Shown: positions 61,656 through 62,566 of the stretch, piece after piece | Layout of the letters: each line of letters opens with the position of its first letter | How positions within the stretch are numbered: the first letter of the stretch is position 1 | Virus record (IMG/VR): IMGVR_UViG_3300048839_001305 | Coordinates: 1 to 62,994 of that record | Length of the DNA: 62,994 bases | Direction: 5' to 3' (one strand) | Source: a virus | Lineage: Duplodnaviria > Caudoviricetes | Made by a program: the position numbers and the translations under genes | Notes under the pieces: generated by a model | Seen by the model: the letters and a program-made list of their open reading frames with translations, nothing else | Database searches by the model: none | Told to the model about the DNA's origin: nothing

Positions 61656-62006
61656 ATGGGCATTGTGGCGGCGTTCCTGACGGCCGCGGGCGAGCGATAC
61701 TCGCCCATGCTGGTGGGGCTGTGGCTGGCCCTGGGCGGTTTGTCGTTTCTGGCCCGGCACTGGGCGCAGACGCGCCACGGCCGCATCCGCGAGTATGGCG
61801 CCGCGGCCGTGGGGCTGGCCGCGGCCTTCGGCGGGCTGGCCCTGTTCTACGCCATACTGTATCTGGCGGACATGCCCTATCCGGCGCGGCAGGGCGCGGG
61901 GCGCATCCTGCTGACGCTGCTGGCCGGGGCGGCCGTCGGTTTCAATTGGGGCGGCGTGGTCGCCGCGGGGCGAGACCTGCGCGACGCAATCACGAGGCGC
62001 GTATGA
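61656..62006 (+). CDS. Multi-TM membrane protein
   Basis: Three to four hydrophobic segments; lysis-module position. Confidence 0.7.
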   Translation: MGIVAAFLTAAGERYSPMLVGLWLALGGLSFLARHWAQTRHGRIREYGAAAVGLAAAFGGLALFYAILYLADMPYPARQGAGRILLTLLAGAAVGFNWGGVVAAGRDLRDAITRRV

Positions 62007-62566
62007 GTCCTGAACTGGCGCTGACCGCGCTGCTGCTGGCGGCCGTGGCGGTCATCGTTCTGCACTCGGCCTGGCGCGGGCGGCGGTCATCGACCATCTT
62101 CACCCAGATGGATCACCTGACCGACCAACTGGAAGAGCTGACCCTGCGCGTCGTCGGGCTGGAGTTGAACCTGTCCGGCTACCGCGTGTGGTCGGCGCAG
62201 CTGCGCGGCCAGGTCGTGGAGCTGGGTGGGACGCCCATCCCGCCGCCGCCGTGGCTGGTCGTGACCGGGCCGGCGGCGGCCGACGGCGGGACGGATAACC
62301 CGCTGGTCGCCATCTACCACCGGATCGGCGACCACTTCTCGGTAGAGGAGATCGACAACCTGGCGCGGGACATCGGCCTGGACGCCGAGGAGCTGGGCGG
62401 TGAATCGAAGTCGGCCCGCGCCCGGCATCTGGTGGAGAGCGCCTACCGGAGCCACCTGTTGCCCGATCTGTTGCGCGTGGCGCAGCAGCGGCGGGCGACG
62501 GCCGACTGGCCGTCGCTGGCTTCGGTCAAGGCGTATCAGTCATCTATTGGTAAGAGCAAGAAGTGA
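62003..62566 (+). CDS. TM-coiled-coil protein with C-terminal EAD-like domain
   Basis: N-terminal TM, coiled coil, then FSVEEIDNLARDIGLDAEELGGESKSARARHLV...LLPDLL...RRATADW. Confidence 0.7.
   Translation: MSPELALTALLLAAVAVIVLHSAWRGRRSSTIFTQMDHLTDQLEELTLRVVGLELNLSGYRVWSAQLRGQVVELGGTPIPPPPWLVVTGPAAADGGTDNPLVAIYHRIGDHFSVEEIDNLARDIGLDAEELGGESKSARARHLVESAYRSHLLPDLLRVAQQRRATADWPSLASVKAYQSSIGKSKK

What the first reader, a model, noticed from the sequence alone, without database searches (positions are those of the whole stretch)
62003..62566. Membrane-anchored effector-associated (EAD-like) domain inside the lysis cassette
Seen: TM helix, coiled coil and Pro linker (ELGGTPIPPPPW), then a ~70-aa helical domain (about 62297-62512) with pattern I..HFS.EEI..LA..IGLD.EEL.G..K..RAR.LV....R...L..LL......R....W. 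Known: effector-associated domains (EAD7/EAD1-like, Death-domain analogues) are homotypic adaptors in conflict systems of multicellular bacteria such as Chloroflexota. Inference: the phage has captured a host immune adaptor, either as a decoy that tethers EAD effectors at the membrane or to recruit host death effectors for lysis. I am not aware of this fusion being described.
Basis: partly seen in the sequence, partly recalled or inferred. Interest (0 to 1): 0.85.

Follow-up and report, generated by a model that had tools for sequence, protein, structure and literature searches.

The report
Phage membrane protein with EAD7 adaptor
A tailed phage encodes, between its tail-fibre and cell-bursting genes, a small membrane-anchored protein whose cytoplasmic tip is a true EAD7 domain, an adaptor otherwise known from bacterial immune and cell-suicide proteins, so the phage probably jams or taps that host machinery.

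Summary
ORF 62003-62566 (+) encodes a 187-aa protein. It has an N-terminal membrane helix, a long coiled coil, the linker ELGGTPIPPPPW and a C-terminal domain that matches Pfam EAD7 over the whole profile (E 2.6e-13, 50 bits against a cut-off of 32).

It belongs to a broad family of about 155-210-aa TM/coiled-coil/EAD7 proteins. I found the family only on viral or short metagenome contigs, not in 802 sampled bacterial genomes.

Charge bias (62 of 62 members) puts the coil and EAD7 in the cytoplasm. A controlled complex prediction supports a parallel dimer through the coil and leaves EAD7 free.

Each of 7 phage records carries exactly one EAD7, so any homotypic partner must be a host protein. 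In relatives the gene sits beside holin-like genes and large peptidoglycan hydrolases. The window itself ends before the lysin.

Best reading (0.4): a late-expressed, membrane-tethered decoy of host EAD7 immune adaptors. Rivals: a link between lysis timing and host death effectors, a purely phage-internal lysis role, or superinfection exclusion. No binding to host proteins was tested, and the host is unknown.

I found no paper describing phage-borne EADs. This scan has reported the same family before on other DNA (at least 8 genomes).

The parts
57471..61655 (+). Context: 1394-aa tail-fibre-like protein with PKD repeats. Its stop directly abuts the start of the next gene.
   Evidence: PKD_4 E 1.4e-37 and PKD E 1.3e-30; weak PHROG tail-fibre hit; ORF map.
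61656..62006 (+). 116-aa small membrane protein (P0001), holin-like by shape only. It has three hydrophobic segments (17-33, 52-68, 80-96) and a basic C-terminal tail. Its stop overlaps the start of the EAD7 gene (ATGA).
   Evidence: No significant family: Pfam Phage_holin_2 only at E 0.5, no PHROG, Atlas uninformative. Syntenic homologues in L002-L006.
62003..62566 (+). The gene of the finding: a 187-aa protein (P0002) built as TM, coiled coil, Pro linker, EAD7.
62015..62071 (+). Residues 5-23, the single transmembrane helix. It is preceded by the acidic 4-aa flank MSPE and followed by WRGRR (62072-62086). Predicted N-out/C-in.
   Evidence: Hydropathy. Charge bias: 62 of 62 family members have more K/R in the 12 residues after the helix than before it, 175 against 5 in total.
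62090..62263 (+). Residues 30-87: long helix (30-73) plus Pro-rich linker (74-87, ELGGTPIPPPPWLVV). This is the predicted parallel dimer interface and the most conserved part within the close clade.
   Evidence: AF2 helix 30-73. Dimer interface at residues 32-86, in register. Pairwise identity in A1: coil 76%, linker 82%, EAD7 58%.
62264..62299 (+). Residues 88-99: variable, low-confidence spacer.
   Evidence: pLDDT below 50 at residues 90-94; 25% pairwise identity in A1.
62315..62497 (+). Residues 105-165: the EAD7 domain (Pfam PF19960), four helices. It is followed by the RxxxxxW(P) motif and a last helix at 172-186 (to 62560).
62577..62873 (+). 98-aa small membrane protein (P0003), with AGGAG 4 nt upstream of its ATG. 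It is conserved downstream of the EAD7 gene in the close clade and has a 33% identical homologue in L019.
   Evidence: No significant Pfam or PHROG family.
62937..62953 (.). Run of 17 G near the record's end. Similarity to the 100-kb relative stops at 62925, so the record probably breaks here, before the lysin region seen in the relative.

Best explanation
The gene encodes a late, membrane-tethered, dimeric mimic of a host immune adaptor. The short acidic N-terminus is outside the cell. One helix spans the membrane. A parallel coiled-coil dimer projects into the cytoplasm and holds two EAD7 domains on flexible Pro-rich tethers just under the membrane.

The phage has no second EAD7, so these domains would engage host proteins that carry EAD7 by the homotypic contacts proposed for EADs. 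Such host proteins are STAND/NACHT sensors and CHAT (caspase-like) or other effectors. The most likely outcome is interference: the phage protein caps or sequesters the host adaptors, so that sensor and effector cannot assemble and abortive infection is blocked while virions mature. This would be the phage counterpart of the CARD-only, pyrin-only and DED-only decoys of animal viruses (recalled knowledge).

Shown: domain identity, architecture, family, single-copy status and gene context.
Inferred from sequence statistics or models: topology and dimer.
Inference only: binding to host EAD7 proteins and inhibition.
For: 1. The domain is a genuine EAD7: 50 bits against a cut-off of 32, over the full profile, and 52.9 bits in the six-frame search.

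2. The nearest relatives outside the family are conflict-system proteins with 3-5 tandem EAD7 copies fused to nSTAND1, NACHT/NPHP3_N, CHAT or bDLD1 (9 of 9 examined carry EAD7). Kaur et al. 2020 propose that EADs couple effectors to core components by homotypic contact, and that EAD7 mainly recruits effectors (passages).

3. The phage copy is an orphan. There is exactly one EAD7 match in each of 7 of 7 viral records examined. It has no effector or enzymatic domain.

4. The domain is predicted to be cytoplasmic. 62 of 62 family members have more K/R after the membrane helix than before it (175 against 5), and the N-flanks are acidic (65 D/E).

5. Dimer prediction: score 0.60 against a best of 3 controls of 0.00.
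- The mark was reached by 20 of 30 proteins solved as pairs of one chain and by 1 of 23 solved as single chains.
- The three runs agree in at least 65% of contacts, and partner pLDDT is at least 75.
- My own alignment was used, so these counts hold only roughly.
- The interface is residues 32-86, in register, and EAD7 is not in it.

6. The family looks phage-borne.
- The Atlas's three nearest clusters (172-197 aa, EAD7 in 96-100% of members) are 50-80% Viruses among the few members with a known phylum.
- 7 further IMG/VR loci carry the same architecture.
- The A2 profile found none in 401 Chloroflexota and 401 Actinomycetota genomes at E <= 1e-24. It found 5 of 5 viral positives at E 1e-30 to 3e-50.

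7. Within the close clade EAD7 diverges faster (58% pairwise identity) than the coil and linker (76-82%). This fits tracking of a variable host partner.
Against: - No interaction with any host EAD7 protein was tested, and the host is unknown. There are no tRNA genes and no close isolate phage. No related TerL was found in five EAD7-rich Chloroflexota genomes.
- Counter-defence genes are more often early genes. This one sits at the end of the late operon, next to lysis genes, in every lineage seen. That placement fits a lysis role at least as well.
- The coil and linker, not EAD7, are the most conserved part in the close clade. This points to an important phage-internal contact.
- EAD7 is rare in the one phylum sampled: 11 of 401 Chloroflexota genomes, including the seeded one. 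Many potential hosts would therefore lack a target.
- The adaptor role of EADs is itself only predicted.
- The dimer pass may reflect generic likeness to solved coiled coils.
Confidence: 0.4

Rival explanations
1. Lysis-linked adaptor. The protein is a working part of the lysis module. It couples the holin and lysin to the host's EAD7 death machinery in one of two ways. Either it recruits host EAD7 effectors (for example CHAT proteases) to the membrane to help kill and open the cell. Or it senses assembled host EAD7 complexes and retimes holin triggering.
For: - Position is constant at the boundary between tail and lysis genes.
- It is translationally coupled (overlapping stop and start) to a 98-116-aa protein with 2-3 TM segments in the window clade, L026, L019 and L021.
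- In L018/L024 and L023 it is followed directly by a roughly 950-aa Peptidase_M23 protein (E 1.3e-17 and 2e-17). In L018 a 105-aa protein follows that, and it matches PHROG holins (E 3.1e-7).
- In L002 a 1137-aa GH25/PHROG endolysin (E 6.5e-26) lies about 1.9 kb downstream.
- The coil and linker are highly conserved in the clade, as expected for a phage-internal partner.
Against: - The flanking membrane proteins of the window match no holin family.
- The upstream small membrane proteins of different lineages are not detectably homologous (best E 0.10).
- These phages share homologous lysin scaffolds and tail proteins. The recurring gene order is therefore partly inherited and is not independent evidence of coupling.
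- Accessory genes often sit beside lysis cassettes (recalled knowledge).
Confidence: 0.25
2. Purely phage-internal lysis regulator or tether (antiholin-like, or a lysin/holin organiser). EAD7 serves as a generic small helical binding module and no host EAD7 protein is involved.
For: The context and conservation pattern are the same as for the lysis-linked rival. A membrane-anchored dimer fits a scaffold role.
Against: - No second EAD7 exists in any of the 7 phage records for a homotypic partner.
- Across the broad family EAD7 is the best-conserved region (38.5% against 25% for the coil), and it keeps the full Pfam profile in 43 of 44 members. This argues that the EAD7-specific surface matters.
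Confidence: 0.15
3. Phage-borne defence or superinfection-exclusion module. The membrane EAD7 plugs into the host's EAD7 effectors to kill or block cells that a second phage infects.
For: 3 of 5 related records carry a tyrosine integrase, so they are temperate. Kaur et al. note membrane-associated versions of these conflict systems (passage).
Against: - No integrase was found in the window or in its 100-kb relative.
- No sensor domain, no PADLOC match and no own promoter (0 promoter-like sites in 57000-62994). The gene is embedded in the late operon, not in a lysogeny-expressed unit.
- It was not found as a prophage gene in 802 sampled genomes.
Confidence: 0.1

Closest known systems
EAD7 (Pfam PF19960), effector-associated domain 7 of NTP-dependent conflict systems (Kaur, Burroughs, Iyer, Aravind, eLife 2020, PMC7159879; Kaur et al., eLife 2021, PMC8195603; passages read)
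   Same: The domain is homologous, matching the full profile above the Pfam cut-off. It is a small, all-helical, non-enzymatic domain at a protein terminus.
   Different: - It is encoded by phages.
- It is fused to a membrane anchor and a dimeric coiled coil rather than to a sensor, core or effector.
- It is a single copy with no cognate second copy in the same genome (7 of 7 records).
- It lies next to lysis genes rather than in a ternary or STAND operon.
Death-fold-only decoys of animal viruses and cells (vFLIP DED proteins, poxvirus pyrin-only proteins, CARD-only proteins); named from recalled knowledge, not from a call
   Same: The concept is the same: an adaptor domain without an effector, homologous to the host's own homotypic adaptor, encoded by a virus. 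Weak fold hits point the same way: bacterial death-like domain 8srz_A (TM 0.59 by target), CARD 9frr_A (0.57) and TNFR1 death domain 1ich (0.47). All have Foldseek E >= 2.6, so none is significant.
   Different: No significant structural or sequence link to the Death fold was obtained. This protein is membrane-anchored and dimeric. Inhibition is not shown.
Holin partners and antiholins of phage lysis cassettes (for example T4 RI/RIII, lambda S107); recalled knowledge
   Same: A small membrane protein encoded beside holin-like and lysin genes, translationally coupled to a small multi-TM protein.
   Different: No match to any holin or antiholin family. It has a large cytoplasmic adaptor domain of immune type.
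i-spanins (Rz type); recalled knowledge
   Same: An N-terminal membrane helix followed by a coiled coil and a Pro-rich linker, encoded in a lysis region.
   Different: The predicted topology is the opposite. Basic residues follow the helix in 62 of 62 members, which puts the coil inside the cell. No spanin family match was found.

Membership tests
EAD7 (PF19960) | Sequence match to the family HMM above the curated cut-off | tested here: met
   50 bits against 32, E 2.6e-13, profile positions 2-62 of 62; 52.9 bits in the six-frame search; 43 of 44 relatives also match.
EAD7 (PF19960) | Small, non-enzymatic, all-alpha domain at the N- or C-terminus of the protein (Kaur et al. 2020, passage) | tested here: met
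   AF2 model shows helices at 100-111, 114-123, 136-149 and 153-163, with pLDDT 94-98 over the domain, which is C-terminal. No other Pfam domain at E <= 0.001; the only other hit is BatA at E 0.0011, below its cut-off.
EAD7 (PF19960) | [quoted passage not shown] | tested here: not met
   Exactly one EAD7 match in the window, in the 100-kb relative and in 5 of 5 further viral records. A cognate copy could exist only in the host, which is unknown.
EAD7 (PF19960) | Homotypic EAD-EAD binding | not tested
   The single complex job went to the full-length homodimer. Its confident interface lies in the coil (residues 32-86), not in EAD7. No host partner was available.
Death-like fold superfamily | Structural similarity to the Death/CARD/Pyrin helical bundle | tested here: inconclusive
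   Foldseek against PDB gave nothing at E <= 0.001. The top hit is bacterial death-like domain 8srz_A at E 2.6, TM 0.59 by target. The VIA-align libraries were not on the machine. The sequence profile against PDB returned only coiled-coil noise.
Holin / antiholin | Match to a known holin family, or a holin-like topology of two or more TM segments | tested here: not met
   No PHROG or Pfam holin match for P0002. It has a single TM segment.
Holin / antiholin | Encoded in the lysis cassette next to holin and endolysin | tested here: met
   Met in relatives. L018 has the order EAD7 gene, M23 protein, PHROG holin. L002 has a GH25 endolysin about 1.9 kb downstream. In the window itself the lysin region is missing.
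i-spanin (Rz type) | Type II topology (N-in, C-out) with a periplasmic coiled coil | tested here: not met
   K/R total 175 after the helix against 5 before it; 62 of 62 members are biased to C-in.
i-spanin (Rz type) | Cognate o-spanin lipoprotein gene, embedded or adjacent | not tested
   No lipobox search was run.
Viral adaptor-only decoys (functional class) | Binds and blocks the host's homologous adaptor | not testable with these tools

The most novel reading that the evidence does not exclude
The protein is a checkpoint that wires the phage's lysis clock to the host's cell-suicide network. The membrane-tethered EAD7 dimer sits beside the holin. When host STAND or CHAT proteins begin to assemble through EAD7, the dimer is drawn into that assembly. 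This would either release the holin for an early escape lysis, or bring host caspase-like EAD7 effectors to the membrane to carry out lysis. It would be a direct molecular link between phage lysis and bacterial programmed cell death, using a Death-like homotypic adaptor.
Probability: 0.13. Interest if true: 0.9.

Novelty: new variant of a known kind. Interest (0 to 1): 0.66.

Why it matters
EADs are proposed to be the bacterial counterparts of Death, CARD and Pyrin adaptors, but their homotypic-adaptor role rests on genomics alone. A phage family that carries a lone EAD7 on a membrane tether gives a simple, testable handle on that proposal. If the phage domain binds host EAD7 proteins, this would show that EADs are real interaction modules. 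It would also reveal a phage strategy, adaptor mimicry, that mirrors the death-fold decoys of animal viruses.

The constant placement beside holin and lysin genes raises a second possibility: that phage lysis and host suicide pathways are physically connected. Either outcome would be new for phage biology, and for the immunity of filamentous or multicellular bacteria such as Chloroflexota.

Tried and rejected
Readings rejected:
- Spanin. The topology is opposite and there is no family match.
- Secreted protein with a signal peptide. The N-region is acidic, with only 5 K/R in total before the helix across 62 members.

Searches that found nothing:
- GenBank phages by tblastn with P0002, P0067 and P0023: no match. 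The TerL search found no close isolate phage; the listed rows reach at most 38.5% identity.
- Genome contigs with alignment A1: none.
- Viral contigs with A4, A5, P0026 and P0019: none confirmed.
- PADLOC: none. PHROGs for the three small ORFs: none.
- Atlas search for P0001: uninformative.
- TerL against five EAD7-rich Chloroflexota genomes: none. The host remains unknown.
- Window: no tRNA genes, no lysin homologue, no integrase.
- Foldseek against PDB and BFVD: nothing at E <= 0.001.
- Profile search of PDB sequences: only coiled-coil noise (FtsB, E 0.011).

Inconclusive:
- The EAD7-domain tree has 267 rows, or 231 after I dropped 36 small proteins of unclear architecture, and 72 columns (FastTree). 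It is too poorly resolved to show one origin. It needs 5 label changes, of which well-supported branches force only 1. 51 of 62 TM-coil domains fall in one pure group with support 84. The rows were picked by similarity to the query, which biases this result.
- Small EAD7 ORFs in three Chloroflexota genomes (L034-L036) lack an N-terminal membrane helix, so they are not family members.

Not seen: the supplements of Kaur et al. 2020 and 2021 are closed. They may list EAD7 architectures, possibly including phage or TM forms.
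Full report
WHAT IS THERE

The window is a complete IMG/VR virus record of 62,994 bp. It is linear, CheckV estimates 80% completeness, and it is 68% GC. It is a siphovirus-like tailed phage with these genes:
- large terminase, 34148-35734;
- head protease fusion, 37479-39800;
- portal-like protein, 41908-43356;
- tape measure protein, 48293-52300;
- Dit-like protein, 52304-54244;
- a 1394-aa tail-fibre-like protein with PKD repeats, 57471-61655.

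Three small genes follow the fibre gene without a gap:
- 61656-62006 (P0001, 116 aa);
- 62003-62566 (P0002, 187 aa, the finding);
- 62577-62873 (P0003, 98 aa).

The P0002 start overlaps the P0001 stop (ATGA) and has GAGG 5 nt upstream. Its codon-position GC is 0.70/0.47/0.88. No promoter-like site lies in 57000-62994. The three genes therefore read as the tail end of the late operon.

THE PROTEIN

P0002 has one strongly hydrophobic helix at residues 5-23. The AlphaFold2 model (44-sequence alignment, mean pLDDT 89.4) shows:
- a helix at 3-28 that continues into a long helix at 30-73;
- an extended, partly low-confidence stretch at 74-99 that contains ELGGTPIPPPPW;
- a compact helical domain (100-111, 114-123, 136-149, 153-163) and a last helix at 172-186.

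Pfam EAD7 (PF19960) matches residues 105-165 over profile positions 2-62 of 62, at E 2.6e-13 and 50 bits against a cut-off of 32. The six-frame family search gave 52.9 bits at 62315-62497, with no match in 14 control genomes.

THE FAMILY

A word-indexed search found 16 proteins, the query included, among 1692 candidates. They are 182-188 aa long, 44-100% identical, aligned end to end, and all carry a precomputed EAD7.

An exhaustive phmmer search of 1.84 billion cluster representatives found 403 proteins at E <= 0.001. The best 150 were listed. Among those I picked 46 proteins of 155-211 aa that have an N-terminal hydrophobic helix and a C-terminal EAD7. An alignment of 44 such proteins (A2) is collinear throughout, and 43 of the 44 match Pfam EAD7.

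The rest of the 150 are mostly long proteins. All nine that I scanned carry 3-5 tandem EAD7 copies. Six of them also carry nSTAND1, NACHT/NPHP3_N, CHAT or bDLD1 modules. These are the conflict-system proteins for which EADs were defined (Kaur et al. 2020 and 2021, passages).

TOPOLOGY AND OLIGOMER

In all 62 family members examined, the 12 residues after the membrane helix hold more K/R than the short N-terminal flank. The totals are 175 against 5, and the N-flank holds 65 D/E. By the positive-inside rule (established knowledge), the N-terminus is outside and the coil and EAD7 are cytoplasmic. This excludes a spanin-like or secreted reading.

A complex prediction of two copies passed its controls.
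- The score was 0.60 against a best of 3 controls of 0.00.
- The mark was reached by 20 of 30 proteins solved as pairs of one chain and by 1 of 23 solved as single chains.
- The runs agree in at least 65% of contacts, and partner pLDDT is at least 75.
- My own alignment was used, so the counts hold only roughly.

The confident contacts run in register (53 with 53, 67 with 67, 74 with 74) over residues 32-86. No EAD7 residue is in the interface. This supports, but does not show, a parallel dimer that presents two free EAD7 domains. Coiled coils may pass partly by likeness to solved structures.

Within the close clade, pairwise identity by region is: coil 76%, linker 82%, EAD7 58%, membrane helix 40%. 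Across the broad family EAD7 is the best-conserved part (38.5% against 25% for the coil).

WHERE THE FAMILY LIVES

The Atlas's three nearest clusters (172-197 aa, EAD7 in 96-100% of members) are 50-80% Viruses among the few members with a known phylum. Structurally nearest cellular EAD7 clusters are commonest in Chloroflexota.

In IMG/VR I found an 89% identical copy on a 100-kb record (L002). A degenerate motif scan gave 17 stretches, of which 8 encode an EAD7 by a local HMM (E 1.6e-29 to 3.7e-19). Seven of these have the same TM-coil-EAD7 build: L018, L019, L021, L023, L024, L026 and L027. L018 and L024 encode identical proteins, and L019 and L027 are close. One locus, L032, lacks the membrane helix.

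Four short metagenome contigs (L003-L006) carry copies 55-62% identical.

The A2 profile found no full-length member at E <= 1e-24 in 401 sampled Chloroflexota genomes or 401 sampled Actinomycetota genomes. Only 8 candidates per genome were scored. As a positive control it found 5 of 5 viral records at E 1e-30 to 3e-50.

No GenBank phage has the family. Three of 5 related records carry a tyrosine integrase. The window and its 100-kb relative do not.

CONTEXT

The close clade (L002-L006) keeps this gene order:
1. fibre;
2. P0001-like;
3. EAD7 gene;
4. P0003-like;
5. an 80-aa protein;
6. a metallophosphoesterase-like protein;
7. a large protein that in L002 is 1137 aa, with GH25 (E 6.6e-22) and PHROG endolysin (E 6.5e-26);
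8. in L002, two small membrane proteins after the lysin.

The window stops at a run of 17 G, about 70 bp after similarity to L002 ends. It holds no lysin homologue.

In L018/L024 and L023 the EAD7 gene is followed directly by a 944-965-aa Peptidase_M23 protein. In L018 a 105-aa protein that matches PHROG holins comes next (E 3.1e-7).

In L026, L019 and L021 the gene overlaps the end of a 98-110-aa protein with 2-3 TM segments.

The lysins of L002 and of L018/L023 share N- and C-terminal regions around different catalytic cores. Other neighbours are also homologous between lineages. These phages are therefore distant kin, and the shared gene order is not independent evidence. The upstream small membrane proteins are not detectably homologous to each other.

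THE ORPHAN STATUS

Each of 7 of 7 viral records has exactly one EAD7. EADs were defined by paired copies in one operon or genome. A lone phage copy therefore has only two candidate homotypic partners: itself, or host proteins.

Such hosts exist. One Anaerolineaceae MAG carries 42 EAD7 matches. EAD7 is nonetheless patchy, occurring in 11 of 401 sampled Chloroflexota genomes, the seeded genome included. The host of this phage was not identified.

INTERPRETATION

The best reading is a membrane-tethered, dimeric adaptor mimic that engages host EAD7 proteins late in infection. It would most likely act as a decoy (0.4).

The constant place beside lysis genes and the strongly conserved coil keep two lysis-centred rivals alive:
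- coupling of lysis to host death effectors (0.25);
- a purely phage-internal role (0.15).

A superinfection-exclusion role is less likely (0.1).

The Death-fold analogy is only a lead. The top Foldseek hits are a bacterial death-like domain, a CARD and death domains, but all have E >= 2.6.

NOVELTY

Full-text searches returned only the two Aravind-lab papers as descriptions of EADs. In the passages I read, none mentions phage-encoded or membrane-tethered EAD7 (passages in 17, 18, 53, 54, 58, 97, 98, 99). Their supplements were closed.

This scan's own notes show that the same family was reported before on other DNA, in at least 8 genomes, with similar readings. Those are AI notes, not independent evidence.

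New here:
- the charge-bias count;
- the controlled dimer prediction;
- the region-wise conservation;
- the single-copy count across 7 records;
- the negative genome samples with a positive control.

Noticed in passing
L002:10420-13833; L018:2081-4978; L023:8475-11309 (minus strand): Giant modular lysins of 944-1137 aa. They share homologous N-terminal (about 550 aa) and C-terminal (about 200 aa) regions, but the central catalytic domain differs: GH25 in L002 and Peptidase_M23 in L018/L023. The large N-terminal region matches no family.
   Followed up: partly
L032:2520-2927: A viral contig encodes a small EAD7 protein (136-aa open frame) without a membrane helix, next to unrelated genes. It is a second, untethered form of phage-borne EAD7.
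   Followed up: partly
Protein P0146 (207 aa): The reverse build: EAD7 at the N-terminus and a strongly hydrophobic helix at the extreme C-terminus (tail anchor). Membrane tethering of EAD7 thus exists in both orders. Its genomic origin is unknown. The scan's earlier notes describe such forms in phages.
   Followed up: partly
G002 (Anaerolineaceae MAG reached through L008): One 8.1-Mb genome holds 42 EAD7 matches to the A2 profile. Only 11 of 401 sampled genomes of the phylum have any. This is an extreme lineage-specific expansion.
   Followed up: partly
L002:9148-10326; L003:1673-2737; L019:6890-7723; L023:7254-8105 (minus strand): A protein of about 280-390 aa recurs downstream of the lysis genes. 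The L002 copy is weakly calcineurin-like metallophosphoesterase (E 3e-4). L019 and L023 copies are 46% identical to each other. Homology between the L002 type and the L019 type was not detected by BLAST.
   Followed up: partly
window 62937-62953: A run of 17 G about 40 bp from the record's end. Similarity to the 100-kb relative ends at 62925. This is probably an assembly break rather than a true genome end.
   Followed up: no
Protein P0083 (164 aa): A family member whose N-terminal 90 residues align but whose C-terminal half is unrelated, Pro/Gly/Ala-rich sequence. It looks like a frameshifted or miscalled copy.
   Followed up: no
window 6557-7168 and 7877-10090: A stand-alone MutS domain I with a phage zinc finger (E 1.4e-19). 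Also a ParB gene followed by a PAPS-reductase-like gene (E 2.1e-8).
   Followed up: no
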